Shown here in pieces: positions 3-29,383 of a stretch of 64,000 bases of DNA. The notes below the pieces were generated by a model that was not told the DNA's origin, did no database searches, and was given only the letters and a program-made list of their open reading frames with translations. The translations under genes were made by a program, and so were the position numbers. Within the stretch, counting starts at the first letter, position 1, and every line of letters starts with the position of its first letter. Location of the stretch: positions 64,001-128,000 of IMG/VR virus record IMGVR_UViG_3300028666_000001, one strand, 5' to 3'. This DNA is from a virus (taxonomy: Duplodnaviria; Heunggongvirae; Uroviricota; Caudoviricetes).

Positions 3-1916
3 GTAGCCTATTGTGAAACTCACCATGTATGGGTTACTGACAATAGAGATTTAAAAGAATATTTGCCAGGGTATAAATTTGATAGTTGGGATAACCATAA
101 TAATGAAACATGTCAGGTTGTTCGTTATCAAGCTGGTAAAGCTGCTTGGGATGAATTGCAGGAGAATGCCAAAAAGCAATTAGAATTATTTAAACGTGAG
201 AGAAAGGAAGAAAAACCCCAACAACTAAAACTACCAGAAGCTCAAGCTTCTTTACATAAACAAGCAGTAGAAGGCTATTGGGTAGCTCCTACCAATTTCA
301 ATGATTATACTGCCAAAGATTTTTATAACATTTTTGAGTATGCCCCATGGAAGCATCTCTTCGGGGGTCCTTTATGGGCTGAAGTAGCTAAGACCATTTA
401 TGAGATGCAGAATACAACAGCTTGGGAAAAGCTTGTAGTATTGATTGACCATTTTCACGATCTTGGACATAATACAGGTAAGCTCTTAGATAAGTTCCCT
501 GAGTGGCATCAATGGTTTAAAAAACTGTTGGATATGAAAGCTCAGAAGAATTCTATTAGATACCTTTTACCTAAAGCTTCTAAACCAGTTCAAAGTCTTG
601 TTACTGAGTATCTTCGAATCCATGGTAAGGATTGGAGAGCAGATGAAAGCCCTAAACAGAAACAAAAGAGTGGTTGGGAAGTTGGTGATGAAGTTTTAGT
701 TACAGAACCTGCAAAGGGTGGACAGTATGTTCCAGGAGTAATTGTAAATATGGTTGATGAGGCTTTATATAAAACTCCCTATGAAGTTAAATATGATGGA
801 ATTATGAGATGGGTAAGACCAGATGAGTTAAAATCTCCTCAGTTTAATGCTTCTTCTTTACGTAGACCATTTAGTAAGAAAGCTAAACTTCCTTCTCGTT
901 TATGGATTGCCCCTGATGGAGTAGAATTTGAGGTTTTTAGTGCAGGACATGGTATGTGGATTAAACAAAATCCTGATATTTTAAAAAAATACAGAATAGA
1001 TACAACTGAACCACAATGGACCCAAGAAAAAATGATAGATGCAGGTTGGGTTCGAGTTTCTGATGAACCTTCTGGAACTGGATTTGTAATAGAAGTTAAG
1101 GATTTAAATAGTATACCAAATTTTGTAGATGATCTTATTGCTAAATATTATCAAAAGGGTGAAACTATTCTAATAGGAGCTAAACAACAATTCATTGAAA
1201 TTACTAATCCTTTCCCTTCTATTCAAAAAGCAGTTAATAAGCAGCTAATGGGTACTCGTGCGTCACTTAAAAAAGCTGATCTTAATGGTCGCACCGTTAA
1301 TGAGATCTTACAGGGTATTCAGTCTTCAGGTGGTGTTACTTATAATCTTTCCCAGGGTAATATGGCTGGAACAGATAATTATTCTGTTTCCATCTATCCA
1401 GATCGCTCAAAGATACTTCCATCAGGAGTTGACTTTGATGAAATTGAGAATTTTATTGTTGCAAATGAAGATTTATTAAATAATGCAAGTAATTCTTTTG
1501 GGGCTTGGACCCATGACGGAAAGGTATATCTTGATGTCGTAGCTACAATTCCAGACCAACAGAAGGCAGTAGATTTAGGTAAACAACACAATCAGATTGC
1601 AATTTGGGATCTTAAGAATAATCGAGAGATTCCTACAGGTGGTACTGGAGAGGTCGTTCGAGCCTTTAGTAAGAAAAGCCTTACTAAAGTGGCTGAGGAA
1701 GAGATCCTACCCCAGGAAGCTCAGAATGAGATCGCTGCAGATTCATCTCCTGTTTATAATATAGCACTAAATAACTATGCTCAGGCCGTTAAAAGAGGCC
1801 ATAGCAAAGATAGAGCACTTGCTTATGCAGTTGAATCAGTAGGTAATCTAGAGAAAATTGATGAAAAGAAGCTTGTAGAATTTATAAATAATTATCTTAC
1901 TGGATTAGTAAAATAA
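3..1916 (+). CDS. Multi-domain putative head-cargo protein, 5'-truncated by the window edge
   Basis: The frame is open from base 3 (VAYCETHHVWVTDNRDLKEY-LPGYKF), so the track start at 63 is not the true start. Contains a GGPLWAEVAK...IDHFHDLGHNTGKLLDK segment, an SH3/Tudor-like segment, one WIxPxG...H...GWxR repeat (~876-1277), a GAW...VYLDV...NQIAIWDL domain (~1278-1690) and K-x-A linkers. Confidence 0.75.
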   Translation, partial: VAYCETHHVWVTDNRDLKEYLPGYKFDSWDNHNNETCQVVRYQAGKAAWDELQENAKKQLELFKRERKEEKPQQLKLPEAQASLHKQAVEGYWVAPTNFNDYTAKDFYNIFEYAPWKHLFGGPLWAEVAKTIYEMQNTTAWEKLVVLIDHFHDLGHNTGKLLDKFPEWHQWFKKLLDMKAQKNSIRYLLPKASKPVQSLVTEYLRIHGKDWRADESPKQKQKSGWEVGDEVLVTEPAKGGQYVPGVIVNMVDEALYKTPYEVKYDGIMRWVRPDELKSPQFNASSLRRPFSKKAKLPSRLWIAPDGVEFEVFSAGHGMWIKQNPDILKKYRIDTTEPQWTQEKMIDAGWVRVSDEPSGTGFVIEVKDLNSIPNFVDDLIAKYYQKGETILIGAKQQFIEITNPFPSIQKAVNKQLMGTRASLKKADLNGRTVNEILQGIQSSGGVTYNLSQGNMAGTDNYSVSIYPDRSKILPSGVDFDEIENFIVANEDLLNNASNSFGAWTHDGKVYLDVVATIPDQQKAVDLGKQHNQIAIWDLKNNREIPTGGTGEVVRAFSKKSLTKVAEEEILPQEAQNEIAADSSPVYNIALNNYAQAVKRGHSKDRALAYAVESVGNLEKIDEKKLVEFINNYLTGLVK

Positions 1917-3713: not shown

Positions 3714-6700
3714 ATGAAGAAATCTGCTTCTATCCTTGATTATTCCTATCCATTTCTTGATCCAGCCGTTTGGGATCATGAGAGGAAGCTTTTTGCCTAC
3801 CAGAAAGATTTTATTCTTCGTTTAATCAGTACGATGTATGAAACTTATAGTCTTCAGCAGCCTGAGACTTGGGTAGAGGATATCGTTATCATAGGTTCTT
3901 TGACTACTTCTAAATGGCTGTTCACTTCTGATTTGGATGTTCATATACGTGTCAATTTAGATGCATTTATAGCATCAAATATGCCTGGGAGTACCAAGGA
4001 ACAGGCTTTTGAGAAACTTGATCTTACTCGCAAGGAATTTGATCGTGCTAAAATCTTAGCTCCTATGACACAGCATCCTATTGAATTTTATTTTGAGAGT
4101 ATTGAATTTAAACCAAGTAACACAGCTCTCGTAGGAATCTATTCCTTAGCGCAGGATGCATGGGTTAAAGAGCCTATTACGTTTGATGCTGACTTGGACT
4201 TCGAAGAGTCTAGAAAGGACGTTGTAGCTCAAGCTGAGGCCCTAGCAGAAGAGCTAGATGGCAGCTTGGGTAAGATTAGGCGTGATATAAAGCGTATTGA
4301 TGAACTTGAGGCTGTTATTAAGGCTTGGGACCAGGATAAACAACAACTCTTTTATGCCAAGGTTGAATCTAAACTCAAAGCTATTGAAGCAGAGATTATG
4401 AAGGATCTGCAGCTTAAGCAGGAATTGGTTGATGCTAGACATGCTAACCAGGATGCTACATCTGAAGTTGAAATTAAATTTAAATGGCTTGCACGTTTTG
4501 GTTTCTTTGGAATCCTATCGAATCTGAAGACTCTTATGGAACAGACTGGTGGGCAGGTGACTACACAGGAACTTCCTTTGATTGAAAAGATTATTAGTCA
4601 AGGATCTGTAAAAGAAGCTAGTGATATGAGTTATGCTTATTGGGTAGACCCAGCAGGTAAAATTTATACAGTTAGACCTAATGAATATTCTAAAGATCTT
4701 TTTACCCATAGTGATTGGGTTGTTGCAAATCAGGAATTGCTTAAGGAACAGTATGGTCTAACTTTAGATCTGAATTGTTTTAAGATCATTAAAGAAATGT
4801 ATACCTCTGGGTGGGCTAGAATAGGAGATTCTGGACGAAGTGATATTGGGTATTCAATTTGTGTTTGGGATTTAGGTTCTATTTCAAATGGTGTGGATAA
4901 TGCTCTTGCTCAATTCTATAAAGGTGGAGAATTAATGGTTGAAGGTGAGTCTGACCATAGAACGGTTATTGTGGGTGATCCTTTTCCAAATCTTCAACAA
5001 GCTGTTAATAAAGCTCTACAGAAGAAAAGAATGGGATCTCTTAAAGAAGCTTTCTTAAAAGAAGCTTTTGAAGAAGAGCCTAAAGAATTAGAGACAGACG
5101 TTTGTGTAGATTTTGATAAAACTATTGCACATGAGGCAAAGTATCCAGCTATCGGTGAACCTATTGAAGGAGCTAAGGAATCTTTAGCTAAGCTTCAAGA
5201 TCTAGGCTATAATGTTATCATTTATTCCTGCAGAGGTGATAGTGATGAGGGTATCGAACTAATTACCAAGTGGCTTGATGAACATGATATGCCTTATGAT
5301 TCTATTTTCAGCGGCGATAAACCCTTCTTCAAGTATGTGATTGATGACAAGGCTATCCATTTCGATTCTTGGGATAAAGTAATGCAGAAGGTTGAGAAGT
5401 CTAATAAGACAGCTTCCTCGAATGTTCTTAGGGTTGAACCTTATGGTGGTGGTCCTGAGTTTCCAGTTCTAGTCAATCCTTCTCGTCAACAGGTTGCTCG
5501 TGCATTACCACAAACTGGTTTTGGTCAACTTCGTGTTATCCAAGCCAATAACAATTATATTTGGGATGCAGAAAAGGCTACCCACGATCATGTAATGGAA
5601 TATTTAGCAGAGCAGGGACTTGAGGAGTATGATCATTGTCAGACAGGTTATATTACAGATGCTTCTGACATAGATGAATTTTCCTGGCAAAAAGCAGCTT
5701 CGTTGCACGTTACTGCTAGGATTGCTAATAAATACTGGATAGCACCAGATGGTAAGGAATTTGCTTTTTCCCCATCTGATAGTAATATTGGTGGTCATTT
5801 AGGTTGGATACCAAAAAATAAAGATATTCTTAAGGGATATGGAATAGATTTAAATATTCATGGACCCTATGGGCATCATGCAATAGCAGATGATATGATT
5901 AAAGCGGGTTGGACACGAGTTACAACCGAATCAGATTATGATTTTGCTATGGAGGTCGCTGATATAAACAATCTTCCTCCTTATTTGGATAATTTTGTTG
6001 CTAAAAATTATTATGGTGGTGGAGTTGAGATTGATGATTTAGAGGGTAACTACCAGGATATTTCTGATCCATTTCCTAATCTTAGAAAAGCTATTTATCA
6101 AGCAAAAAGATTAAGACAGCAACCAATTGCAGCTTCTTTGAAAATAGAAGCTGATTATGAACATGCTTATTGGATAGATCCTAATGGTAAAACCTTTCAA
6201 GTAAGAGGTGAGGGTGTTACTGGTGTTGATATAGATGAGGGTAAAGCTGATACACATTTTAAATGGGTCCAAAAAAATAGAGAAATGTTGATAAAAGATT
6301 ATGGATTTAAACCTGTTACAAATCAATGGACAAGTGATCGTCTTACTTCAAATGATCTTATGGCAGCTGGATGGATTAGAATCGGGGATAGTTCTGGTGG
6401 TTCAGAATGGGGTGTTACTCTTAAAAGTTTAAGCCATGTACCTACCTCAGTAGATAGTTTACTTGCTCAGTTTGTTCCTGAAGGTGCTCAAATTACAATT
6501 GAAGAAGATACTAGATGGGAAAATCATGTCGCTATTATATGGCCTGTTAAATCCGTCCAACAAGCTGTTAATCAGGCATTGCAACAAAAAAGATTACAAC
6601 CTGTATCTAAAGCTTTCTCAAAGAAAGAGATTACAGCTCAAACTAAGAAAGTTAAACAAGGTGATTACTCCTGTCTCATGGCTTTAGTTCCTCATGATCT

Positions 6701-9700
6701 GGCCCAGGAAATTGTTGCTTGGGGAGTACGCAACGTTCCTGATGAGGAACTATATTTAGATGAAGATGGGAATTTGGGACGTGAGCTTGAATCTCATATT
6801 ACAATTAAGTATGGTCTATTGACCAATAATGCTAAACATGTTCGACGTTCTTTTAATGATGCAAAGCCATTCCATGCTAAACTTGGAAAGGTACGACACT
6901 TTCAGCCCCCTGAACTTCCTTTTGATGTTCTTACTGTAGAAATTATTAGTGACGATCTACAGGAAGCTAATGAGAAAGTATGTGATAAATTTGAATGCGC
7001 TAAGGGTCTTGTATCTGATGAGTATAAACCCCATATTACAATAGCCTATATGAAGCGTGATACAGCTAAGGAGTATGTTGGAGCTGATGAATTTGAAGGT
7101 AAAGAGGTTGAACTTGATACTGTGATCTTCAGTCCTCATAAGGGCAATCGAACCTATTTCAGTCTTTCACAGGATAAAGAGAGTTCTTTTATTTTACAGG
7201 AGATTAATAAAGTTGCATATCCTGCTGGTAATTGGGCTGAGTCTGCTTGGATTTCTCCAACTGGTGAAGTTGAGGAATTCGAGGGGGATAGTCACGTAGA
7301 TATGATTTTTGATTTGCTTGATGATGATAGAAAATATGATAGTGAAGATGTTCTTTCTTTAGCTATCAATAAGGGTTGGACTCGTTTTGGAGAAATGGGT
7401 GGTGGAGGAGAAACTGGAGCTAATGTTCAAAGCCTCAGAAATATAAATCCTGCTGTTTTTAATCATGCCCTGAAGTATACAGGTCAAGGTAAGGAAATGG
7501 TTGTATCAGATCTTTCAGGTGCATATGTTAAAATGCCCGTAGATGAATTTGTATTGGGTCAGGGGGCAGTTAATAAAGCTTTGATGGGGGCAACAAAGAC
7601 AGCAGCTCAAGTGCCTTTTTCAGGTGAAGCTTGGAGAGGAATGTCTATGGGTGGTTTTCCTCCAGGAACTACAGCTGCCGATGTCATACGATATGAAGCT
7701 GAAGAACTAGGTAATGACAATAAAGTAGATCCAAATATTTTACCTCTATTAGAAAAACGTCCAGCCTCTGATCTTATTTGGGTAACGAAGAGTAAAGAAG
7801 ATGCTACAAAATATGGTAATCCACAACCTGTTAAAATTGATCCTAACTCTACTGTTATTGGTCAAGATGAGGAAGGTGGTTATTTAATTTTAAAATCTGC
7901 CGAGTTTCTTCCTTCTATGGCAGAGAATGCTCCTACTAATCGTTGGCAGTTTGCTCAAGGTGGAGATGATGTTGAGATTGCTTTACAGCCAGATAGTGTA
8001 TCGGATGATGCTACAGAAGCAGAACCATGCACAACAGGTAAACCACGTACCAAAGATATGTGGAGACAGTTCATGTCCATCTTTCAAAATGCCTTCTCAA
8101 AGAAAGAAAATGTAACTATAAAATCCTATGATAAAGAATTAGAACAGGAAGAGAAGGATGCATTAGGTGAAGATCAAACTCTTCTCGAATATTCTAAGGG
8201 TTTCTATGATCCAGCAAAGCATGACTTTCCACATAATACAACTTGGGATTCATTGACGCAAGATGGAGAACCAAGTAAACCTACCTCAGTAACTTATTCT
8301 CCTCAGATATCTAATGACGACAATTTGGATCAGAATTCTCCTGGTGGATTTCCCCGTCGTTTCATGGGTAAGCCAAAAGGTGAATGGTTCTCTAATGAGG
8401 GTGAGGTTAATCACACTCTTATTGATATGCTTAAGAATCGTCAGGCATCTCTTGATAGTATGACAAGAGATATTACTGCTGGTTATGGTCCTGGGTATTG
8501 GATAGATCCCAATGGTAAAGCTTATCAGGTAAGAGGTGAAGATGATCTTGTTACACACTATGACTGGATTAATAGAAATAAAGAACTTTTATTAAATGAG
8601 TATGGAATTGAAATTGATACTCCAAATGCCGATTTTAATTCTAAAGCTTTAATAAAAAAGGGTTGGACACGAGTTGGAGATTCTAGTTTTGGGTACATTA
8701 GCATTGAGACTCCAGATTTAACACATCTTCCAGCTGGTCCTTTAGATTCTATTTTAAGTACCATTAATAATGGTAAGGGAATTATTGTAGAGGATATGAA
8801 CGGTGGACATGTAGAGATAAATTGGATTGACGAAGTGTATAATGGGAATATTCAAAAGGCAGTTAATAAAGCTCTTCAGAGAAAACGTTTGGGTAAACAA
8901 GCTTCAATCGAAGAAGTTAATGGTATTAAGGTTTTGGTAAATCCTAGTCCTGAAGAGGTAAAAGGTTTCGTAAAAAAATTTAGATCTCTTCGTGCTTTGG
9001 TTGATCCGCAGTCAGGAGATATCTTTGTTTGGAATGCATATCAATCAGAGCATAATACAATGATTCGTTATTATGGGTTAGATATTGATTGGGAAAATGA
9101 TGATGGTACTTATATTCGTCATGTTACTATTCCAAATGATATTAATTACTTATTTGATACTCAGGCTGAGATTAAGAATCGTAAGGGTACAATGAAGCAA
9201 GCAGGTTCCAATAATGTAAGTTACTGGATAGATCCAAAGGGAGAAGTTTACTTAGTTCCAGAAACTACTCACGATATTTGGATGGTTAATGAAAATCAAT
9301 TACTGAAAGATAAATATGGAATAGATACAACCAAAGAAGATTGGAGAAATCTTATTGAACGAGGCTGGACAAGGGTTAATGCATCCAAGGATAGTGTGAG
9401 TTTGGAGGTAGCTGATATTCATAATGTTCCATCTTTTATAAAGAATTTTATTAAAGAATATATTGGTGAAACCCCTAAAGTATTTATAGAAGATAGAATG
9501 AATAATAGTGTAACAATACCATTCTTTAGAGGCTCTATTCCAAAGAGTGCAGGTGATCAAAGTGCTTCAGTTCCTGATTATTTAATTGATGAGTGGAAGA
9601 CTGATCAATTGCATGATGATATTTCTGAAGAGCCATATGTCAATCATGATCAAAGAGATTATCCATATGGGATGCATGATAGTCCAGAAAACACAGGCTA

Positions 9701-9863
9701 TAATATTGGTTGGGCTAAAGACAATCAGCCAGCCGTTGTTCGTTTAGATACCCTTGAAAATCCAGCTTACAGATTAGATCCCTTTGGAATCGGGGAATAT
9801 AATGTAACGTGGTATACTTCATTGCCAGCTAGTGACGGTATAGAGAAAACCAACCCTGAGTAA
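3714..9863 (+). CDS. Giant multi-domain (polyvalent/polyprotein-like) protein with nucleotidyltransferase, HAD, 2H phosphoesterase, ART-like and repeated unknown domains
   Basis: Likely start MKKSAS at 3714; the track start at 3600 overlaps the upstream gene. NTase IIGSLTT...SDLDVH; HAD VDFDKT...YSCR...IDDK; 2H HITIKY and HITIAY; ART-like AWRG...WVT...A..YG; six WxxPxG repeats; two VLVNPS domains. Confidence 0.85.
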   Translation: MKKSASILDYSYPFLDPAVWDHERKLFAYQKDFILRLISTMYETYSLQQPETWVEDIVIIGSLTTSKWLFTSDLDVHIRVNLDAFIASNMPGSTKEQAFEKLDLTRKEFDRAKILAPMTQHPIEFYFESIEFKPSNTALVGIYSLAQDAWVKEPITFDADLDFEESRKDVVAQAEALAEELDGSLGKIRRDIKRIDELEAVIKAWDQDKQQLFYAKVESKLKAIEAEIMKDLQLKQELVDARHANQDATSEVEIKFKWLARFGFFGILSNLKTLMEQTGGQVTTQELPLIEKIISQGSVKEASDMSYAYWVDPAGKIYTVRPNEYSKDLFTHSDWVVANQELLKEQYGLTLDLNCFKIIKEMYTSGWARIGDSGRSDIGYSICVWDLGSISNGVDNALAQFYKGGELMVEGESDHRTVIVGDPFPNLQQAVNKALQKKRMGSLKEAFLKEAFEEEPKELETDVCVDFDKTIAHEAKYPAIGEPIEGAKESLAKLQDLGYNVIIYSCRGDSDEGIELITKWLDEHDMPYDSIFSGDKPFFKYVIDDKAIHFDSWDKVMQKVEKSNKTASSNVLRVEPYGGGPEFPVLVNPSRQQVARALPQTGFGQLRVIQANNNYIWDAEKATHDHVMEYLAEQGLEEYDHCQTGYITDASDIDEFSWQKAASLHVTARIANKYWIAPDGKEFAFSPSDSNIGGHLGWIPKNKDILKGYGIDLNIHGPYGHHAIADDMIKAGWTRVTTESDYDFAMEVADINNLPPYLDNFVAKNYYGGGVEIDDLEGNYQDISDPFPNLRKAIYQAKRLRQQPIAASLKIEADYEHAYWIDPNGKTFQVRGEGVTGVDIDEGKADTHFKWVQKNREMLIKDYGFKPVTNQWTSDRLTSNDLMAAGWIRIGDSSGGSEWGVTLKSLSHVPTSVDSLLAQFVPEGAQITIEEDTRWENHVAIIWPVKSVQQAVNQALQQKRLQPVSKAFSKKEITAQTKKVKQGDYSCLMALVPHDLAQEIVAWGVRNVPDEELYLDEDGNLGRELESHITIKYGLLTNNAKHVRRSFNDAKPFHAKLGKVRHFQPPELPFDVLTVEIISDDLQEANEKVCDKFECAKGLVSDEYKPHITIAYMKRDTAKEYVGADEFEGKEVELDTVIFSPHKGNRTYFSLSQDKESSFILQEINKVAYPAGNWAESAWISPTGEVEEFEGDSHVDMIFDLLDDDRKYDSEDVLSLAINKGWTRFGEMGGGGETGANVQSLRNINPAVFNHALKYTGQGKEMVVSDLSGAYVKMPVDEFVLGQGAVNKALMGATKTAAQVPFSGEAWRGMSMGGFPPGTTAADVIRYEAEELGNDNKVDPNILPLLEKRPASDLIWVTKSKEDATKYGNPQPVKIDPNSTVIGQDEEGGYLILKSAEFLPSMAENAPTNRWQFAQGGDDVEIALQPDSVSDDATEAEPCTTGKPRTKDMWRQFMSIFQNAFSKKENVTIKSYDKELEQEEKDALGEDQTLLEYSKGFYDPAKHDFPHNTTWDSLTQDGEPSKPTSVTYSPQISNDDNLDQNSPGGFPRRFMGKPKGEWFSNEGEVNHTLIDMLKNRQASLDSMTRDITAGYGPGYWIDPNGKAYQVRGEDDLVTHYDWINRNKELLLNEYGIEIDTPNADFNSKALIKKGWTRVGDSSFGYISIETPDLTHLPAGPLDSILSTINNGKGIIVEDMNGGHVEINWIDEVYNGNIQKAVNKALQRKRLGKQASIEEVNGIKVLVNPSPEEVKGFVKKFRSLRALVDPQSGDIFVWNAYQSEHNTMIRYYGLDIDWENDDGTYIRHVTIPNDINYLFDTQAEIKNRKGTMKQAGSNNVSYWIDPKGEVYLVPETTHDIWMVNENQLLKDKYGIDTTKEDWRNLIERGWTRVNASKDSVSLEVADIHNVPSFIKNFIKEYIGETPKVFIEDRMNNSVTIPFFRGSIPKSAGDQSASVPDYLIDEWKTDQLHDDISEEPYVNHDQRDYPYGMHDSPENTGYNIGWAKDNQPAVVRLDTLENPAYRLDPFGIGEYNVTWYTSLPASDGIEKTNPE

Positions 9864-18923: not shown

Positions 18924-20663
18924 ATGGCAAGTAAAAAGAACGGAAAAAAAGGTAACTCAAAGAAAGGAACAATGTCTCCTACAGGATTTAATGGTGGTCT
19001 TCAGGACCCCAATTCTGGGGCTAATGCATTTTCTATTGGTATTGGAAAGACAGCATCAATGGATAAAAGTGCAGGTAGTGAGTATTCTGTCTCACAGACA
19101 CAATCGTTTTTCTATTCCCCTGAACTTACCTCAGATTCATGGGTACTTCCAAAGTCTCGTCAGGAAATTTTAAAGTGGATTCGTATTTTCTTCAATTTGG
19201 AACCATATATTCAACAGATCACTATGATGCATTCATTGTATCCCTTTTCGAAGTTCGATCTCGTTGTTTCTGATCCTACTATTAAAAAGTTTTATGAAGA
19301 GATGGCTTCAAATGGAGATTTTAATTTGTTTGAGTTTATTCTTCAAGCCTCTTTATCACGAGAGAAATTTGGTGAGGCTATTTGTTTTGGTAATTTAGCC
19401 CAGGATGAAAATCCCTCTAAGAATGGTAAGAAACTTTTCCGATGGCACAATTTTATTCTTTTAGAACCTGAGCTTGTAGAAATCAAAACAGATATGATGA
19501 GTGGTAAAAAGACCTTTGAGATGGTTCCTACTGAGGAAATCAAGGCTCTTATTTCTTCTACTCGCCCAGAAGATATTGAACGAGTTGAACAACTTAAAGA
19601 AACTTCTCCAGAGCTTGTTAATGCAGTTATGGAGCATAGAAATATTAAACTTGATGAGAATTGTGTATCACAGGTTGCTCGTGTTACCGATCCTTCAGCT
19701 ACTCGTGGTACGTCACGCATTCAATCTTGTTTCAAAGCTTTGATTCTTCAGGACTGGATTCGTCTTGCACAATCAGCTTATGCTAAGAACTATGTGTTCC
19801 CAAAAGAGTTGTGGACCATTGGAGACTTAGCCAGTAACACAATGCCTTCAAAGGATGACCTGAATAACTGGAGACAGTTGATCAACCAATCCATTCAAAG
19901 TCCTCCATTCACAATCATTGCTCCTCCAATCGTGCATTATGAGGCATTGAGCGTTATGGGTAAGCAATTCCCCTTGAACAATGAGTATGACTACATTCAG
20001 GATCAATTGCTCGTAGGCTTAGGCGTAAACAAAAACATTATTTTAGGTGAAGGTCCAAACTTTGGTAATAGCAAGACTATGGCTCTTCAAGCATTGGTCA
20101 TGCAATATAAGGCTGTACGTGATAAGTTTGAAGACTGGATTATTAATAAGTTCTTCAGACCTATTGCTGAGAAAAATGAATTTTATACTGTTGATCCTGA
20201 TACTGGTGAGAAGCAGCTCATTCTCCCACAGATTGCTTGGTATAAGTCTTTGGATATCGATGCTCAGGAACGTGAACAGGAACAATTTGCAGAATTCCAT
20301 AAAGAAGGTCTTATTTCTACGAAGACTTTATTTAGCAAGTATCCTAACCTTGATTACGAAACAGAACGTAAGCAGTTGGAAGAGGAAAAAGGAACCATCT
20401 TTGATAAGGGTGGTAAGGATAATCGCTTGCCAGCTCAAATCTCCAAACCTAGCGGTGGTGGAGGCGGTGGTGGTGGAATGCCAGAAGATTTAGGTGGAGA
20501 AGAAGGTGCTGGTGGTGCTCCAGTTGAGCCCACAGAGCCCATAGAGCCAGGACAAGGTGGCGGTGCAGAAGGTCTTCCAGATGGTCAAGAGGGTAGCGCA
20601 GAGGTTGGAGGAGAAGGAAATGTCGGTGGAGCAAGTGACTTGGGTGCTCCTGAGATAGGATAA
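18924..20663 (+). CDS. Portal protein
   Basis: Follows terL. Helical core WIRIFFNLEPYI...FGEA...RGTSRIQSCFKAL...LLVGLGV...IINKFFRPIA; low-complexity Gly/Glu tail. Confidence 0.88.
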   Translation: MASKKNGKKGNSKKGTMSPTGFNGGLQDPNSGANAFSIGIGKTASMDKSAGSEYSVSQTQSFFYSPELTSDSWVLPKSRQEILKWIRIFFNLEPYIQQITMMHSLYPFSKFDLVVSDPTIKKFYEEMASNGDFNLFEFILQASLSREKFGEAICFGNLAQDENPSKNGKKLFRWHNFILLEPELVEIKTDMMSGKKTFEMVPTEEIKALISSTRPEDIERVEQLKETSPELVNAVMEHRNIKLDENCVSQVARVTDPSATRGTSRIQSCFKALILQDWIRLAQSAYAKNYVFPKELWTIGDLASNTMPSKDDLNNWRQLINQSIQSPPFTIIAPPIVHYEALSVMGKQFPLNNEYDYIQDQLLVGLGVNKNIILGEGPNFGNSKTMALQALVMQYKAVRDKFEDWIINKFFRPIAEKNEFYTVDPDTGEKQLILPQIAWYKSLDIDAQEREQEQFAEFHKEGLISTKTLFSKYPNLDYETERKQLEEEKGTIFDKGGKDNRLPAQISKPSGGGGGGGGMPEDLGGEEGAGGAPVEPTEPIEPGQGGGAEGLPDGQEGSAEVGGEGNVGGASDLGAPEIG

Positions 20664-20962
20664 TGATTAATCATTCCCATTCATCCAATGTCGTATGGAA
20701 TATGAATTATTCAGGTGTTGTAAGTGCTGGAGTCTATACAACTACTTCAAATAGTAGTGTCTCGAATAATGTAACGTTTGAGTATATTATTAAACGTTGC
20801 CGAGAATGTAAACATGCTCATGCACAGGAAGGTGCAAGAGGCTGTTACGATGTATGTGATGCTTCAATTGCTTTTGTGGTTAATTGCCATTGCAAAGAGC
20901 ATGTACCAGAGGATAATCTGGAGTACTTGGAATATCTAATTAAGAAAAAGGAACCTCTATGA
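20663..20962 (+). CDS. Small Cys/His metal-binding protein, DNLxxLE family
   Basis: CRECKHAH...C..C...CHC followed by DNLEYLE. Confidence 0.65.
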   Translation: MINHSHSSNVVWNMNYSGVVSAGVYTTTSNSSVSNNVTFEYIIKRCRECKHAHAQEGARGCYDVCDASIAFVVNCHCKEHVPEDNLEYLEYLIKKKEPL

Positions 20963-23627: not shown

Positions 23628-23850
23628 GTGTCGCACCTGTGGGCATTGTTGGGAAATACATGATCATCATGGCATGAAAAAATGTTTTCAGAATATGGGT
23701 GATGATTACGATTCATATTCTTTATTCTGTGACTGCAATACTGGATGGATTCCTGGAGATAACCTAGAATTTTTGGAAATGAAATATGACAGATCAAAAT
23801 TGGCTATCGAGTCTCGCAACAAAAGCAATGAGGATCTGCCGACTGACTAA
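23611..23850 (+). CDS. Small Cys/His metal-binding protein, DNLxxLE family
   Basis: CRTCGHC..IH...C...CDC followed by DNLEFLE; probable start at 23611. Confidence 0.65.
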   Translation: MPNENECRTCGHCWEIHDHHGMKKCFQNMGDDYDSYSLFCDCNTGWIPGDNLEFLEMKYDRSKLAIESRNKSNEDLPTD

Positions 23851-24493
23851 AGAGGCTGCAGGTAATCATCGTCAGGATATGACTGGTCCAGTATTACAAA
23901 ATTTGCTTCAAGATGGTTACACTCAGGTCACATGGAATTCAAATGGTTCTCATCATGGTGAATGTAGAGATTTAAATAAACAGGTTTGGGACCTACAAGA
24001 TTTTTTAGCTACAACTGAGTATGATGCACCTTTATTTTCACGTTCACATCCAGGAGATGCTTCCTGTACTTTAACTGTTAGTGGTCAGGGTCTTCCACCA
24101 GTAGAAGTTGATTCATATGGTGAGACAGATGAGGCAATTGGAACTAGTCGTCCAGCTCCTACTCCAGCAAAACCAGTACAGCAACAGCAACCTATGGTTC
24201 GAACAATAGCTCCTCCTGAACCTAAAGTTGAGCGAACACCTGAAAAGCCTGAAACAAAAGTGCGCTATGTAACCCCAGAGGTCCATAAAGAGATTAAAGA
24301 TCCATTTGAGCATCATGATCTTAGCCCTGAAGAGTATGAGCAGTGGCTTAAAGAATTAGAGCAGGAAGAAGTTCAAGAGTCTATCCCAGCTAAGAAAGAA
24401 CTAACTGATGAAGATTGGGATGAAAGACGCAATTTTAATGTTGAAAATAGTAAGAAAGTACCTAATTGGATTACAGGGTTATTTAAAGGATAA
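23828..24493 (+). CDS. MuF-like (minor head) protein
   Basis: VTW...HHGECRDLN...APLFSRSHPGDASC resembles the MuF W...C..L...P.HPxCxC motif. N-terminal KEAA linker; lies just before the protease gene. Start at 23786 or 23828. Confidence 0.55.
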   Translation: MRICRLTKEAAGNHRQDMTGPVLQNLLQDGYTQVTWNSNGSHHGECRDLNKQVWDLQDFLATTEYDAPLFSRSHPGDASCTLTVSGQGLPPVEVDSYGETDEAIGTSRPAPTPAKPVQQQQPMVRTIAPPEPKVERTPEKPETKVRYVTPEVHKEIKDPFEHHDLSPEEYEQWLKELEQEEVQESIPAKKELTDEDWDERRNFNVENSKKVPNWITGLFKG

Positions 24494-24499
24494 TTTATT

Positions 24500-27400
24500 A
24501 TGAGTTTGGTCAAATTGGGATCTCATCTACGAATTTTAAAGACAGCAGCTGTTGCTGAAGATTTGCTTATTGAGAAACCCGTAGCTACTCCAGCTACAAA
24601 AGTTATCGAAGCAAAGAATTCCGATTTTCTATACTATCGCGCTCGTGCTATTTCTGCTGGTGATCAAGGTCCATTAACTAAAGATGGAAGTCGTGGTTGG
24701 AATTTTAATGGCAATAAAGATTATTTTCCTCGTAAAGAATTAGAATCTTCTTACGAAAGTTTCATTGGTCGTAATATTTTCTTAGATCATAACTCTGAAA
24801 GTTCTCTATATTCCATTGGTAAGATCATTGATGCTTTGCCTATTGACGATCCTGAGACTGGTGAGTTTTACATTGAGTTGGTTGGTAAGATTGATCGTAC
24901 CCTCCATCCTGAGATTTGCCGTAAGATTGAGACTGGTGAATTGAATAGCACAAGTATGGGTTGTTCAGTTGATGAATCTATTTGTTCTATTTGTGGTCAT
25001 GTGCTTCATTCAGATGCTGATGAGAAGTGTGATCATATGGGTATGAATCTTGGTAAGCAGTTTCCCGCTGAAGTTGATGCTCCAGAATACAATATTAAGA
25101 AAGGTGATATGGTTCCTTGCTTTTCTATTAATAAAGGTATTGTATTTAATGAAGATTCAATTGTAGGAGTTCCAGCAGATCCAACAGCTGTTATTAAAAC
25201 TGTTTTGTCTAACATGAAGAATCAGATATCGAAGAAAGCTTCTTTGACAAAGAAAGAGCAGTTAGACTTGGCTGCACAGATGGATAAATTATTTGACAAA
25301 CTTGATGAAAGTACTAAGATCCAATTAAAAGCTGATTTTTGTGGCATTTGCCCACCAGTTGAAAAGGAGTCGTCCATGGCTGACAAGAGCGTTGTTCCCA
25401 ATGAGGAAACAAAAAAGATTTTAAATAAAATTTCGGCTTATGAAATGGAACAACTTGAATCTTACGTTATTGGTAAGACCAAGAAAGTTGCTGAAGAGAA
25501 ACAAGTTGTAGCTGACTCCGTTGCTAAAGAGGAATCATTCTTGTCAAAGATCGTTGCTAAAGTGAAAGATGCTCTCGCAGGTGATAAACCAGCTATTTCA
25601 GCTAAGTTCCAGGAAGATAAAAATAACGTTTTAGATTCAACATGGTCTGTATATGAAGGTGATAAGTGTGCATTGGAAGCTTCCCTTAAAGAAATTTGGG
25701 GAGCACAGTTCGAACTTCTTTCCTTTGATGATCAGAAATGGGCAACCAGTACTGATTATGCTAAAGAGATTGTATCTCGTTATACCAAAGATGGTATTGA
25801 GAAACTTGCCGATGCTTGGGATGTTTCTGATAAATTAACGAAGACAGCTAAAGGCCCAGAATTAGGTCCTGATGGTTCTTATGCAAAACCCTCAACTGGT
25901 TCTTCTAATAAAGAGCATAGCTATCCAACCAATCCTAAATTTGAAAAACCTAAACCAGGAACAAGTTCAAAAGGTCCTGCAGCTCCAGCACATAAAGATG
26001 TAAAGGACTCTAAAGTTGAAATGCCTGGGCAGGAAAAAGGGCAGAAAGGCCAACCTGCACCAAAGGCAAAAGAAGTAAAAACTGATTATAGTGAACCAAA
26101 GGCAGAGGCCGAAGGCAAAGAAGTAAAGACAACTCCTAAGAATCCAGAAGAAAAAAAGATGGAGAAGTCTGAGAAAGAAGTAAAGACAGATTACGTTGCT
26201 GCAGGTACTGAAGCAATGGAAGCTGAGGATAAAGGAGAGAAGTCAGATAAAAAGTCTTCTATTAGTTGGGCCTCTCTTACTCCCAAAGCACAAACATTTA
26301 TTAAGACAGCTGCAAAAAAGTATATTGAAAGTGGAATGAAAAATGCTGAAGCCGTTGCGAAAGCACACAGCGAATTTACAGCCCAGGAGACTACTATGCA
26401 AAAGAAAGCTGAAGGAACTACTGTACCAGAAGGAAAAACAAGTTTTGAAGGCAAACCAATAGAGTCAGTTGATGGCTCTACCTTACCTGATGGTACGAAA
26501 GAAATGGGTGATAAGGCCGTTGAATCTGTAAAAGGTGATGGTCAGCCAAAAGGTTCTGCTCCCTCAGCTGCTCCTGAGACAAGTGCTCAGGATGATAAGC
26601 CAGGAAAAACTCCTGATATGACAAAAGCTCCTGAAGAAGCTGTTCAAGATAAACCAACTGAAGTAGGTAAGGATAAAAATCCTGATGAATCAGTAAAAGA
26701 TCCTAAAGAACCAGCTCCTTCTGATTTAACAAGCAAGCCCGAAGAGTCCGTTAAAAAGGCTGCTGCTACAGATATGCCAATGCCTGAAGAGAAAGATCCT
26801 ATGGGCAAAGATCCAATCGTTGAAGATCCTTTAGCCGAAGAGAAACCTATGGACCTTCCAATGGGTGGACCTAAAATTGATGAACCAGCCGCAGAAATGT
26901 CTGCTTTTGATACTGCTGAGAATGTTGAAATCGGTGAAGGTTATACAGCCAATAAGGACAAAGAAACTAAAGAAATTATTGTTATGAAAGATGGACAGGA
27001 AGTAAAACGTCTCCCAGATGGATTTGGTAAAGACCTTTCTGTAGTTCTACCTCTTATGAAAGCAGTTCTTGGTCTTCCTCCAGAAGCAGCACAACCAGAA
27101 GCTCCTGGTGCAATGCCACCAGTAGAAAAGCCTATGGAAGAGCCTAAAGTTGAAGAGCATCCAGCAGCTGAAGAGGCTCATGAAGACGAACTAGGCATGA
27201 AAGAATCAGCTCTTAAGGTTAAAGAAGCAGCTCTTGCAGAGAAAGAAGCAGCAATCACTGCAAAAGAAGCTGAGATTAAGGCTGCAGAACAATCTAAGAA
27301 ATTTGCTTCAGTTCTTCAAGCTCGTACAGAACGTTGCAAAAAAGTTATTGCTTCAATGGTTGAGAAAGATGCACTTCAGATGGACAAAGAAGTATATGAA

Positions 27401-27673
27401 AGCGAAATGAAGATTGGTACTTATCTATTAGATGCTCAGAAGAAAGCTTTTGAACATGCTATCAAAGCAAAACAGAAAGAATTGTTAGCTATGGATGATA
27501 ATGCACTTCTCGCCACAGAGAAAGTAATTGCTGATCTTAAAACTCCTTCAAATGTAAACACAAAGAGAGCAAGTCGTATTTATGTCTCTCCTTCATTTGG
27601 TGAAGAGCTTTCAGAAGACGCACAACTGAAGAAAATCTTTGACACATTCGGGACAAAGAATCGTCCTCAGTAA
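24500..27673 (+). CDS. Prohead protease fused to a long scaffold/core region
   Basis: N-terminal DYFPRKEL...FIGRNIFLDHN...IGKIIDA...TSMGCSVDESICSICG...C.H protease domain, then an acidic Pro/Lys-rich region and a C-terminal coiled coil; directly upstream of the decoration and MCP genes. Confidence 0.82.
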   Translation: MSLVKLGSHLRILKTAAVAEDLLIEKPVATPATKVIEAKNSDFLYYRARAISAGDQGPLTKDGSRGWNFNGNKDYFPRKELESSYESFIGRNIFLDHNSESSLYSIGKIIDALPIDDPETGEFYIELVGKIDRTLHPEICRKIETGELNSTSMGCSVDESICSICGHVLHSDADEKCDHMGMNLGKQFPAEVDAPEYNIKKGDMVPCFSINKGIVFNEDSIVGVPADPTAVIKTVLSNMKNQISKKASLTKKEQLDLAAQMDKLFDKLDESTKIQLKADFCGICPPVEKESSMADKSVVPNEETKKILNKISAYEMEQLESYVIGKTKKVAEEKQVVADSVAKEESFLSKIVAKVKDALAGDKPAISAKFQEDKNNVLDSTWSVYEGDKCALEASLKEIWGAQFELLSFDDQKWATSTDYAKEIVSRYTKDGIEKLADAWDVSDKLTKTAKGPELGPDGSYAKPSTGSSNKEHSYPTNPKFEKPKPGTSSKGPAAPAHKDVKDSKVEMPGQEKGQKGQPAPKAKEVKTDYSEPKAEAEGKEVKTTPKNPEEKKMEKSEKEVKTDYVAAGTEAMEAEDKGEKSDKKSSISWASLTPKAQTFIKTAAKKYIESGMKNAEAVAKAHSEFTAQETTMQKKAEGTTVPEGKTSFEGKPIESVDGSTLPDGTKEMGDKAVESVKGDGQPKGSAPSAAPETSAQDDKPGKTPDMTKAPEEAVQDKPTEVGKDKNPDESVKDPKEPAPSDLTSKPEESVKKAAATDMPMPEEKDPMGKDPIVEDPLAEEKPMDLPMGGPKIDEPAAEMSAFDTAENVEIGEGYTANKDKETKEIIVMKDGQEVKRLPDGFGKDLSVVLPLMKAVLGLPPEAAQPEAPGAMPPVEKPMEEPKVEEHPAAEEAHEDELGMKESALKVKEAALAEKEAAITAKEAEIKAAEQSKKFASVLQARTERCKKVIASMVEKDALQMDKEVYESEMKIGTYLLDAQKKAFEHAIKAKQKELLAMDDNALLATEKVIADLKTPSNVNTKRASRIYVSPSFGEELSEDAQLKKIFDTFGTKNRPQ

Positions 27674-28354: not shown

Positions 28355-28426
28355 GTAATTAGATACTAGATCTAGTTGTAAACATGATTGGTCGTGAGAC
28401 TGACATGTATTTTAAAGGAGAAATTT

Positions 28427-29383
28427 ATGAATGACAAGCTAAATGTTGAAGCTTCCATGGAAGTTCTCTCAAGCGCACAGGTTGAGGAAAAGCTCACCCG
28501 TTTGATGAATTCCCCAGGTGGACTTCAGAAAATTGCACAACAGATGCTCTCGCCCCTAAAGCGCGAACTTCTGTACGAAGGTCGTATTCGCCAACTCTTC
28601 CAGACCTATAAACTAGCTCTCGGAGAGGAAGCCGTATTCGACGCTGATGTAGATGTACCAGCAGCCAGCATCTCGGTTGAAGGTCTTCCAGCACAGCTCG
28701 AAGTTCTCGCAGATCGTATTCGCGTAGAAACGTCACCTATTTCTACACGTCCTATGATTCGTTGGAATGAATCGAACTTCCGTAAATATGACGTTCTAAA
28801 CAGAACACAGGAACGCGCAAAAGCATCAATCATGCTTCAGGAAGATACTCGTGGTTTTAATTTGATCAACTTCGCAAGCGGTTTGACAAATCAGACACCC
28901 GCAGCATCTCTTGCTGGTACGACTGCTGCAACAAACAACCCATCGGTGATTCCAAACGGAGCACCTGGATTGTCAATGTACACCTTGGCTACCGCAATCG
29001 TAACCCTAAGCTCCAAGCTTTTGGTTGCCAGCAAGCTATACATCAATCCAATCACACGCAGAGACTTGCTTTTGTTTAACAATGCTCCTGCAGGTAATGG
29101 TGGACTTGGAATCTTCGCTCCTAACTTCCAGGACACAGCTCTAAAGGCTGGTCGTGTAGGTGGAATCATGGGCGTTGACGTTCTAGAGTCTGTCGTTGTT
29201 CCTTCCTCAGCCTGTTTCGTCTTGGCTCCAGCCGATTACCTCGGCGTGTTGGCAATTCGTACAGACCTGTCAGTTGAGACAATGAAAGATGTAAACAAGA
29301 TGGCAGATGTATTCGCTATCTGGGAAGATCTAGGATTCTTGATCCGATACGCTAAAGGTATCGTCAAAATCACACTTCCATAA
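28427..29383 (+). CDS. Major capsid protein (HK97-type fold expected)
   Basis: ATG at 28427 after AAAGGAG; 318 aa. LKRELLYEGRIRQLF, RAKASIMLQED, GRVGGIMGVDVLES and FAIWEDLG motifs; position after protease and decoration genes; strong hairpin downstream. Confidence 0.88.
   Translation: MNDKLNVEASMEVLSSAQVEEKLTRLMNSPGGLQKIAQQMLSPLKRELLYEGRIRQLFQTYKLALGEEAVFDADVDVPAASISVEGLPAQLEVLADRIRVETSPISTRPMIRWNESNFRKYDVLNRTQERAKASIMLQEDTRGFNLINFASGLTNQTPAASLAGTTAATNNPSVIPNGAPGLSMYTLATAIVTLSSKLLVASKLYINPITRRDLLLFNNAPAGNGGLGIFAPNFQDTALKAGRVGGIMGVDVLESVVVPSSACFVLAPADYLGVLAIRTDLSVETMKDVNKMADVFAIWEDLGFLIRYAKGIVKITLP

What the first reader, a model, noticed from the sequence alone, without database searches (positions are those of the whole stretch)
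3714..9863. 2050-aa apparent polyprotein: separate enzyme-sized domains joined by a recurring K-x-A linker
Seen in sequence: about 12 domain-sized blocks (NTase, HAD, 2H, ART-like, six repeat-A, two repeat-B). Nearly every junction carries K-x-A or a close variant: MKKSAS, VKEAS, LKEAF twice, NKTAS, QKAAS, NKVAY, TKTAA, LKSAE, NRQAS, GKQAS, MKQAG, PKSAG. Established: prohead proteases such as T4 gp21 and phiKZ gp175 cut head cargo at short 3-residue motifs, and polyvalent proteins of phages deliver multiple effector domains. Inference: this protein is packaged and cut by the phage protease into a cocktail of individual effectors injected at infection, a modular polyprotein delivery system into which new domains can be inserted between linkers.
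Basis: partly seen in the sequence, partly recalled or inferred. Interest (0 to 1): 0.92.

Follow-up and report, generated by a model that had tools for sequence, protein, structure and literature searches.

The report
Phage cargo polyprotein with protease-site linkers
An uncultured 192-kb phage encodes a 2049-residue chain of about 14 enzyme-sized domains joined by a short Lys-x-Ala signal that also sits at the ends of its capsid, portal and head-protease proteins, so the chain is probably packed into the capsid and cut into separate enzymes there; cutting has not been shown.

Summary
ORF 3714-9863 encodes a 2049-aa protein with six copies of an undescribed ~135-aa domain (repeat A), two repeat-B copies, an NTase-like N-terminal module, a HAD phosphatase and a 2H phosphoesterase. 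It has only 13 K-x-A tripeptides (10 expected). Ten of the 12 internal ones fall in domain-boundary zones covering 17% of the length (P=1e-6).

In 45 metagenomic homologues with shuffled domain content, K-x-A is the most boundary-enriched of the scored X-x-Y patterns (7.9-fold) and is about 4-fold depleted inside repeat-A cores.

The same motif is conserved where a head-maturation protease usually cuts. These places are the capsid-protein and portal N-termini and both flanks of the assemblin-fold protease domain of the protease-scaffold fusion (24500-27673). A sister lineage uses [V/I/L]-x-A both at its polyprotein junctions and in its scaffold.

Cleavage, packaging and injection remain untested. 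It is a new variant of two known themes: polyvalent proteins and prohead-protease processing of cargo. This scan has noted similar motif-punctuated polyproteins, with other motifs, on other phage DNA.

The parts
3714..9863 (+). Polyvalent protein gene, 2049 aa (P0002)
   Evidence: Open frame. It has 45 multi-domain homologues of 1180-2749 aa, plus one marginal hit, with conserved N- and C-terminal modules and a variable middle.
3729..4619 (+). N-terminal module aa 6-302: Pol-beta-type NTase-like core plus a helical region, conserved in nearly all homologues
   Evidence: phrog_36119 E=5.3e-10. Weak PF01909 hit. G-S...D-L-D-V motif seen in the sequence. HSP coverage of about 42 homologues starting at residue 1.
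4626..5033 (+). Repeat A copy 1 (aa 305-440)
   Evidence: HMM E=1.5e-37.
5067..5414 (+). HAD-type phosphatase domain (aa 452-567), DxDxT motif present
   Evidence: phrog_1238 E=2.9e-20. Sub-threshold NCBIfam HAD_phos_BT0820 match, E=1.1e-8.
5415..5699 (+). Repeat B copy 1 (aa 568-662)
   Evidence: 27% identical to copy 2, E=4e-6. No family match.
5721..6122 (+). Repeat A copy 2 (aa 670-803)
   Evidence: HMM E=2.8e-38.
6156..6596 (+). Repeat A copy 3 (aa 815-961)
   Evidence: HMM E=3.3e-41.
6639..7217 (+). 2H phosphoesterase domain (aa 976-1168) with two H-x-T motifs
   Evidence: PF13563, 33.4 bits against a cutoff of 27. phrog_755. TIGR02258 weak.
7233..7595 (+). Repeat A copy 4 (aa 1174-1294)
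   Evidence: HMM E=1.3e-24.
7605..7901 (+). Small domain aa 1298-1396, possibly ADP-ribosyltransferase-like (unproven)
   Evidence: No Pfam or NCBIfam hit. Only weak Atlas leads to ART families, scores 0.85-0.90.
7902..8447 (+). Unassigned conserved block aa 1397-1578, ending in R-Q-A|S
   Evidence: Covered by about 39 homologues. No family or Atlas hit.
8484..8891 (+). Repeat A copy 5 (aa 1591-1726), the copy that was modelled
   Evidence: HMM E=2.3e-37. AF2 pLDDT 88.8, alpha/beta fold. No significant PDB match.
8904..9203 (+). Repeat B copy 2 (aa 1731-1830)
9210..9542 (+). Repeat A copy 6 (aa 1833-1943), C-terminally shortened
   Evidence: HMM E=6.1e-31.
9552..9860 (+). Conserved C-terminal module aa 1947-2049, shared by most homologues; a candidate packaging handle
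   Evidence: 31 HSPs end at aa 2041-2049. C-terminal sequences are alike across the family. No family hit.
4611..4619 (+). K-E-A junction site (aa 300-302). The other K-x-A sites start at nt 3720, 5043, 5058, 5406, 5691, 7209, 7596, 7893, 8154, 8895, 9195 and 9543. Variant sites are I-E-A (6144-6152), I-T-A (6630-6638) and R-Q-A (8439-8447).
   Evidence: Positions. Ten of 12 internal sites lie in boundary zones. Codons vary (AAA/AAG; GCT/GCA/GCC), so conservation is at the protein level. The I-T-A site aligns with L-K-Q-A in 27 of 42 homologues.
24500..27673 (+). Prohead protease-scaffold fusion, 1057 aa. The protease core is aa 40-238 (nt 24617-25213). Candidate self-cleavage sites are K-T-A|A at aa 14-16 (24539-24547) and K-K-A|S at aa 245-247 (25232-25240). 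About 20 conserved K-x-A lie along the whole protein.
   Evidence: phrog_18299 head maturation protease E=3.8e-12. Invariant H97 and S152, and K245 at least 90% conserved in 54 sequences. The AF2 core has pLDDT above 90, and both sites lie in segments below 50. The top Foldseek PDB hits are herpesvirus assemblins and T4 gp21.
28388..29383 (+). Major capsid protein. Candidate maturation site is V-E-A|S at nt 28445-28453. It reads K-E-A|S/A in 10 of 16 relatives and L-R-A|S at the aligned position in lineage L026.
   Evidence: phrog_2522 E=7.4e-34. Alignment. L026 MCP is 46% identical. The start codon is ambiguous (TTG 28388 or ATG 28427).
18924..20663 (+). Portal protein. Two tandem sites, K-T-A|S (19047-19055) and K-S-A|G (19065-19073), sit at the end of a variable N-terminal segment, just before the conserved core.
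   Evidence: phrog_16240 E=1e-32. Alignment of 14 orthologues.
23786..24493 (+). 235-aa head-module protein with a conserved K-E-A|A at aa 22-24 (23849-23857)
   Evidence: The site is present in 16 of 19 orthologues. No family hit.
888..1262 (+). Seventh repeat-A copy, in the upstream large protein (ORF running off the window start to 1916), flanked by K-K-A on both sides
   Evidence: HMM E=3.5e-34.

Best explanation
P0002 is a phage 'polyvalent' protein: a string of independently folding effector-type domains. The identified domains are an NTase-like module, a HAD phosphatase, a 2H phosphoesterase and a possible ART, together with six copies of an undescribed domain A and two of domain B. It is encoded just upstream of the terminase-portal-protease-capsid genes.

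I infer the following mechanism. The protein is incorporated into the prohead, perhaps through its conserved N- and C-terminal modules. There the assemblin-fold prohead protease, which is fused to the scaffold (24500-27673), cuts it at exposed inter-domain linkers carrying [K, less often I/V/L/R]-x-A followed by a small residue. The cut is most likely after the Ala, as in the herpesvirus assemblin rule (V/L/I)-x-A|S. This would yield about 13-15 pieces of roughly 90-300 aa, which stay in the capsid and enter the host with the DNA.

Shown here: the domain architecture, the placement statistics of the motif, the presence and fold of the protease, and the same motif at the ends of head proteins. 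Inferred: packaging, cleavage, the exact scissile bond and delivery.
For: 1. Placement in P0002. Ten of 12 internal K-x-A lie in boundary zones covering 17% of the length (P=1e-6). They exceed composition-preserving shuffles (P=0.0008) and are depleted elsewhere.

2. Placement across the family. K-x-A ranks first among the scored X-x-Y patterns for boundary enrichment (340 in zones, 243 outside, ratio 7.9). The reversed A-x-K gives only 67 in zones. K-x-A[SAG] gives 172 in zones and 66 outside.

3. Repeat-A flanks. Of 156 full repeat-A copies, 124 have K-x-A within 25 aa upstream and 98 have one downstream. Inside the cores there are only 0.12 per 100 aa, against about 0.49 expected.

4. The motif is not part of one domain. 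It also follows or precedes the NTase, HAD, 2H and B domains. The codons differ between sites.

5. The same motif in head proteins. It is conserved at the MCP N-terminus, at the portal N-terminus (two tandem sites just before the conserved core), in a 235-aa head-module protein, and at both flanks of the protease domain. About 20 conserved sites lie along the protease-scaffold fusion. K245 is at least 90% conserved in 54 proteases down to 25% identity. Both flanking sites lie in AF2 segments with pLDDT below 50.

6. The protease. It matches PHROG head-maturation protease. Its model's top PDB hits are herpesvirus assemblins and T4 gp21.

7. Co-variation. In lineage L026 (MCP 46% identical) the polyprotein junctions read R-H-R-V-x-A. 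There [VIL]-x-A[SAG] is enriched in the polyprotein (13 against 6.8), the scaffold (9 against 2.5) and a 446-aa head protein (5 against 2.2), while K-x-A[SAG] is not. The window's lineage shows the reverse.

8. Precedent. The prohead proteases of SPN3US, phiKZ and T4 cut ejection and internal proteins at 3-residue motifs (PMC10052503). Polyvalent proteins were predicted to be packaged and proteolytically released (PMC5512222).
Against: - There is no proteomic or biochemical evidence, and no cultured relative exists.
- The total K-x-A count in P0002 is not above expectation (13 against 10.1), and the genome as a whole shows none (304 against 283).
- The motif is degenerate: three junctions use I/R at P3. 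Site choice would therefore depend on accessibility, which weakens any motif-only prediction.
- K-x-A is often directly adjacent to the repeat-A start (modal gap of one residue), so part of its recurrence could be inherited by duplication.
- The co-variation rests on a single sister lineage with small counts.
- Known prohead proteases mostly trim N-terminal propeptides rather than dice multi-domain chains.
- The protease domain matches no Pfam or NCBIfam peptidase model, and the Foldseek E-values are only 1e-3 to 2e-2.
- No capsid-targeting signal or MuF/portal-binding domain was identified.
Confidence: 0.6

Rival explanations
1. K-x-A is a conserved but uncleaved linker element, for example a helix cap or a flexible hinge. 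In this reading the protein acts as one giant multi-enzyme chain, either packaged whole or working in the cytoplasm.
For: Many polyvalent proteins have no demonstrated processing (PMC5512222). The motif often lies within 1-2 residues of the repeat-A start and just after its C-terminal helix, so it could be a structural boundary feature.
Against: A structural cap would not be expected at the N-termini of the MCP, the portal and the protease, or along the scaffold part of the protease fusion. It would not be expected to change in step with the scaffold motif in a sister lineage. It would not explain the depletion inside domains.
Confidence: 0.15
2. The junctions are cut, but by another protease. 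Candidates are the trypsin-fold protease encoded between the portal and scaffold genes (20959-21645), which might cut after the Lys; one of the phage's ClpP homologues; or a host enzyme.
For: A conserved S1-type protease gene (phrog_9683, E=1.1e-22) sits inside the head module in 16 related loci. Lys is the most conserved motif position, which fits trypsin-like P1 specificity.
Against: The S1 protease carries an N-terminal lipoprotein-type signal (hydrophobic stretch then L-P-A-C), so it is probably exported. P3 can be I/V/L at aligned junctions and in the MCP, which a Lys-specific enzyme would not cut. The invariant Ala plus a small next residue resembles the assemblin rule. The sites flank the assemblin-like domain itself.
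Confidence: 0.12
3. The motif is a scar of gene fusion or a DNA-level recombination junction used for domain shuffling, with no role in the protein.
For: Domain content is heavily shuffled among homologues. One junction keeps a Met directly before the Lys (T-M-K-Q-A-G, aa 1826-1831). The scan noted a DNA-conserved junction in another phage (e1-1835050).
Against: Codons for K, x and A and the flanking DNA differ among the 13 sites, so there is no extended nucleotide identity. Only one site has an adjacent ATG. The same peptide motif occurs in non-shuffled head proteins.
Confidence: 0.05

Closest known systems
Polyvalent proteins of phages and conjugative elements (Iyer, Burroughs, Anand, de Souza, Aravind 2017; PMC5512222)
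   Same: Both are large single polypeptides of many effector-type domains (2H, NTase and, in homologues, ART-PolyVal, ParB and LMW phosphatase). Both are encoded next to portal-terminase packaging genes. Both are predicted to be packaged and released by proteolysis.
   Different: No embedded zincin metallopeptidase, MuF or C-terminal assemblin domain was detected. Release would instead depend on a trans-acting prohead protease and a short motif at nearly every junction, which that paper does not describe ('linker' occurs 0 times). The dominant domain, repeat A, is not in Pfam.
Prohead-protease processing of internal and ejection proteins: T4 gp21 (L/I-x-E), phiKZ gp175 and SPN3US gp245 (A/S/G-x-E)
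   Same: An assemblin-fold protease and a three-residue motif that is shared by the capsid protein, the portal, the protease itself and the cargo. Several candidate sites occur per substrate.
   Different: The motif is K-x-A (P1 Ala, not Glu). In the characterised phages mostly N-terminal propeptides are removed. Here the sites separate complete functional domains along a 2049-aa chain.
Herpesvirus assemblin maturation and release sites, (V/L/I)-x-A|S (own knowledge; Welch et al. 1991, cited as ref 56 in PMC5512222)
   Same: Best structural matches of the protease model. Ala at P1 with Ser favoured at P1'. Self-release from a protease-scaffold fusion. Aliphatic P3 variants occur here too and dominate in lineage L026.
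   Different: Lys is the preferred P3 residue in this clade. The substrates include a multi-enzyme cargo protein. This protease has an inserted Cys/His cluster.
Phage P1 Dar system (DarA, DarB, DdrB) and T4 Alt/IPs
   Same: Head-packaged anti-defence or host-takeover proteins, some of them proteolytically processed before or at packaging.
   Different: Those are separate gene products with at most one or two cuts, not a string of domains with repeated junction sites.

Membership tests
Polyvalent proteins (Iyer et al. 2017) | Two to 15 distinct, mostly catalytic, conflict-type domains in one polypeptide | tested here: met
   2H above the Pfam threshold. HAD. NTase motif. Six A and two B domains. 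Homologues add ART-PolyVal, ParB, NTP_transf_2 and LMWPc.
Polyvalent proteins (Iyer et al. 2017) | Encoded by a phage in the context of portal-terminase packaging or virion genes | tested here: met
   Terminase, portal, protease-scaffold and MCP lie 7-20 kb downstream on the same strand.
Polyvalent proteins (Iyer et al. 2017) | Embedded peptidase (zincin MPTase or C-terminal assemblin-like) or a MuF/portal anchor domain, common but not universal | tested here: not met
   No such Pfam, PHROG or NCBIfam hit on the whole protein or its unassigned pieces.
Polyvalent proteins (Iyer et al. 2017) | Packaged in the virion and delivered with the DNA | not testable with these tools
   No isolate and no proteome. 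Nothing similar among 50,697 phage records.
Substrates of a prohead (head-maturation) protease | The phage encodes an assemblin/gp21/HK97-type protease in the head module | tested here: met
   phrog_18299 E=3.8e-12. Invariant His97 and Ser152. The fold's top PDB hits are assemblins and T4 gp21, probability 0.9-1.0, E 1e-3 to 2e-2. No Pfam peptidase model is matched.
Substrates of a prohead (head-maturation) protease | The same short motif recurs at maturation positions of the capsid protein, portal, scaffold and the protease itself | tested here: met
   Alignments of 14-22 orthologues. Both protease-flanking sites lie in disordered segments.
Substrates of a prohead (head-maturation) protease | Motif and protease lineage change together | tested here: inconclusive
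   One sister lineage (L026) shifts to [VIL]-x-A in its polyprotein and scaffold, but its protease gene was not recovered. Other lineages show other junction motifs, but their contigs, where fetched, showed no recognised head genes.
Substrates of a prohead (head-maturation) protease | Demonstrated cleavage at the motif | not testable with these tools
   Needs mass spectrometry or an in vitro assay.

The most novel reading that the evidence does not exclude
Motif-punctuated cargo polyproteins may be a general, lineage-programmable delivery format of large uncultured phages. In this reading any domain flanked by the clade's own prohead-protease signal can be inserted, duplicated or swapped. The signal would be K-x-A here, [VIL]-x-A in L026, and possibly [LVM]-F-E, N-P-C or R-I-K-G elsewhere. 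The ubiquitous repeat-A domain (803 representative proteins, up to 11 copies per chain) would be an undescribed effector or carrier module that alternates with the enzymes. The junction motif could then be used to read out the specificity of uncharacterised head proteases directly from metagenomes.
Probability: 0.3. Interest if true: 0.85.

Novelty: new variant of a known kind. Interest (0 to 1): 0.7.

Why it matters
If the junctions are cut, one gene supplies a whole set of separately acting enzymes to the first minutes of infection. A 2H enzyme that could destroy cyclic-nucleotide defence signals, a phosphatase, an NTase and others would all be made in fixed stoichiometry.

Evolution could then add or swap effectors simply by placing them between protease signals. 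It would define a new specificity, K-x-A|S, for an assemblin-fold phage protease. It would give a sequence-only way to predict capsid cargo and protease specificity in uncultured phages. It would also point to repeat A, an abundant domain with no Pfam model or PDB match, as a target for functional study.

The concept extends two established ideas, polyvalent proteins and prohead-protease processing, rather than founding a new one. This scan has flagged analogous motif-punctuated polyproteins in several other phage genomes.

Tried and rejected
- Nucleotide and protein searches of 50,697 phage records found no relative of the polyprotein beyond isolated HAD and 2H pieces. The MCP is only 29.5% identical to Bacillus phage G gp27. 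No characterised relative with proteomics is therefore available.
- Repeat A gave no Pfam hit in any of 130 copies. It gave no significant PDB match by Foldseek or VIA-align (best Z 4.8 over 57 residues). AFDB clusters returned only uncharacterised proteins. The Atlas searches by features and by shape were uninformative.
- Unassigned blocks 1397-1593 and 1945-2049 had no family hit.
- The protease domain gave no PDB hit by sequence and no Pfam or NCBIfam hit.
- I tried to test the [LVM]-F-E lineage (P0114) against a T4-type protease. Its contig is only 6.8 kb with no head genes, and no isolate phage matches it.
- I tried to find the protease of lineage L026 in its 98-kb record, but the record is not held.
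- The N-P-C lineage locus L027 showed no recognisable head genes by Pfam.
- Gene-fusion or internal-start explanation: only one junction has an adjacent ATG, and there is no shared DNA block.
- A plain self-BLAST found no repeats. phmmer and HMM searches were needed.
- No complex prediction was run, because no binding claim is made.

Full report
**What is there.** The window is part of a single 192-kb contig of an uncultured phage. Nothing in 50,697 phage records matches the polyprotein gene at the DNA level. The major capsid protein is only 29.5% identical to Bacillus phage G gp27.

ORF 3714-9863 (+) encodes 2049 aa. Homologues start at the same M-K-K-x-A-S, so the ATG at 3714 is the likely start.

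The gene lies in a one-strand block of large genes just upstream of the head genes:
- terminase, 16620-18269
- portal, 18924-20663
- a secreted-looking trypsin-fold protease, 20959-21645
- a 1057-aa protease-scaffold fusion, 24500-27673
- the major capsid protein, 28388-29383

**Architecture.** HMM searches confirm six copies of a ~135-aa domain, repeat A, at aa 305-440, 670-803, 815-961, 1174-1294, 1591-1726 and 1833-1943. A seventh copy sits in the upstream large protein at window nt 888-1262. The two repeat-B copies share 27% identity (E=4e-6).

- The 2H phosphoesterase passes Pfam's threshold and has two H-x-T motifs.
- The HAD domain is supported by PHROG and by sub-threshold NCBIfam matches and shows DxDxT.
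- The N-terminal module carries the Pol-beta NTase signature and a weak PF01909 match.
- The 'ART-like' block (aa 1298-1396) has only weak language-model leads to ART families.
- Blocks 1397-1578 and 1947-2049 are conserved but unassigned.

Repeat A folds confidently (pLDDT 88.8) into an alpha/beta domain. It has no significant PDB match and no Pfam match in 130 copies. A profile search nevertheless finds it in 803 representative proteins, often in many copies per chain.

**Is the K-x-A observation real?** Yes. P0002 has just 13 K-x-A (10.1 expected), so the signal is in where they sit.

I defined domain boundaries independently of the motif. I used clusters of BLAST-HSP endpoints against 45 homologues whose domain order differs.
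- Ten of 12 internal sites fall in zones that make up 17% of the length (binomial P=1e-6).
- Shuffles that preserve zone composition give 3.4 in-zone against 10 observed (P=0.0008).
- Outside the zones they give 7.0 against 2 observed (P=0.024).

Across the family:
- K-x-A is 1.56-fold over expectation (607 against 389).
- It ranks first among the scored X-x-Y patterns for boundary enrichment (340 in zones, 243 outside, ratio 7.9).
- The reversed A-x-K gives 67 in zones. K-x-A followed by S, A or G gives 172 in zones against 66 outside.
- Of 156 full repeat-A copies, 124 have the motif within 25 aa upstream and 98 downstream. Cores hold 0.12 per 100 aa, against about 0.49 expected.

The motif also borders the NTase, HAD, B and 2H domains, so it is not merely part of repeat A. 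Codons and flanking DNA differ among the sites. This argues for selection on the peptide rather than on a DNA junction.

Three junctions without K-x-A carry I-E-A (aa 811-813), I-T-A (973-975) and R-Q-A (1576-1578). The I-T-A site aligns exactly with L-K-Q-A in 27 of 42 homologues. The working motif is therefore [K > I/V/L/R]-x-A followed by a small residue.

**Link to the head protease.** The N-terminal 330 aa of the 1057-aa protein match PHROG 'head maturation protease'. In 54 homologues down to 25% identity, His97 and Ser152 are invariant.

The AF2 model has a core at aa 40-238 with pLDDT above 90. Its best PDB matches are herpesvirus assemblins and T4 gp21, with probability 0.9-1.0 but modest E-values of 1e-3 to 2e-2. 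No Pfam or NCBIfam peptidase model is matched.

In 14-22 orthologue sets taken from 24 IMG/VR loci, K-x-A is conserved at these places:
- The MCP N-terminus. Ten of 16 relatives read N-K-E-A|S/A, and the window reads N-V-E-A|S.
- The end of the portal's variable N-terminal segment. Two tandem sites sit directly before the conserved core.
- aa 22-24 of a 235-aa head-module protein.
- aa 14-16 and 245-247 of the protease-scaffold fusion.
- About 20 positions in all along that fusion protein.

The two protease-flanking sites fall exactly in the model's two disordered segments, aa 1-30 and 239-249. K245 is at least 90% conserved across all 54 sequences. This is the pattern known for T4, phiKZ and SPN3US, where one short motif serves the capsid protein, portal, protease and cargo (PMC10052503).

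Ala followed by Ser resembles the herpesvirus assemblin rule (V/L/I)-x-A|S. That rule is from my own knowledge (Welch et al. 1991, ref 56 of PMC5512222).

**Co-variation.** Repeat-A polyproteins of other lineages carry other conserved junction strings:
- R-H-R-V-x-A (P0118, P0132)
- [LVM]-F-E (P0114)
- N-P-C (P0074)
- R-I-K-G (P0109)

For P0118 I recovered part of its contig, locus L026. Its MCP is 46% identical to the window's, and it has a separate scaffold homologue.

In that lineage [VIL]-x-A[SAG] is enriched in the polyprotein (13 against 6.8), the scaffold (9 against 2.5) and a 446-aa head protein (5 against 2.2). K-x-A[SAG] is not enriched there. The window's lineage shows the reverse pattern. 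The MCP site is positionally conserved as L-R-A|S.

This is one lineage pair with small counts, so it is suggestive rather than conclusive. Attempts to extend the test failed for lack of long contigs.

**Interpretation.** The best explanation is a polyvalent cargo protein that the prohead protease cuts at its linkers into about 13-15 pieces. It remains an inference, because no packaging, cleavage or delivery data exist.

The rivals are:
- An uncleaved structural linker motif.
- Cleavage by another protease. The trypsin-fold enzyme in the head module has a lipoprotein-type signal and could not cut the I/V/L variants.
- Fusion or recombination scars, which the lack of shared DNA at the sites argues against.

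**Comparison with the literature.** Iyer et al. (PMC5512222) defined polyvalent proteins. They predicted release by embedded zincin peptidases, with assemblin-like domains at a few C-termini. They do not describe inter-domain motifs for a trans-acting head protease; 'linker' occurs 0 times. Full-text searches found no paper describing such punctuated polyproteins.

This scan's own earlier notes report analogous motif-punctuated polyproteins with other motifs in at least seven other phage genomes. Those are unchecked AI notes. They show that the theme recurs in the scan, not that it is proven.

**Verdict.** It is a new variant of a known kind, with interest of about 0.7.

Noticed in passing
window 20959-21645 (+): A 228-aa trypsin/HtrA-like serine protease (phrog_9683) with an N-terminal hydrophobic signal ending in L-P-A-C (lipobox-like). 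It is conserved between portal and scaffold genes in 16 related loci. It contains no K-x-A. Its role in a head module is unexplained.
   Followed up: partly
window 24500-25489 (+), protease domain aa 162-179: Invariant C162, C165, C177 and H179 form a likely zinc-binding insertion inside the assemblin-like protease domain.
   Followed up: no
P0074, P0114, P0118, P0132, P0109, P0101, P0113; loci L025-L027: Repeat-A polyproteins of other lineages have their own conserved junction strings: N-P-C, [LVM]-F-E (which fits the T4-type L-x-E rule), R-H-R-V-x-A, R-I-K-G and F-P-D-K-R. These are leads for protease specificities in uncultured phages.
   Followed up: partly
window 5043-5066 (aa 443-452): The junction peptide L-K-E-A-F is tandemly duplicated (L-K-E-A-F-L-K-E-A-F), giving two adjacent candidate sites between repeat A1 and the HAD domain.
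   Followed up: no
genome 53392-56193 and 59275-62811 (upstream of the window); window 10503-12122 and 12149-16003: Other large proteins around the polyprotein show modest K-x-A excess (20 against 12.5, 16 against 9.3, 12 against 6.1, 18 against 11.1). One of them starts M-I-D-K-T-A-G. They may be further cargo substrates. The 1284-aa protein carries DUF7417.
   Followed up: partly
window 28388-28453: The MCP start is ambiguous. A TTG at 28388 aligns with an ATG used in several relatives, which gives a 22-aa rather than a 9-aa N-terminal peptide before the x-E-A|S site.
   Followed up: partly
P0235, P0248 (protease-scaffold homologues): Some homologues of the protease-scaffold protein carry intein or homing-endonuclease domains (PF05203, PF14890, PF14528).
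   Followed up: no
window 27878-28354 (+): A 158-aa Gly/Asn-rich protein between scaffold and MCP is 70-92% conserved in relatives and has a homologue at the same position in lineage L026. It has no family hit, no Lys-x-Ala and almost no Lys. It is possibly a decoration or core protein.
   Followed up: no
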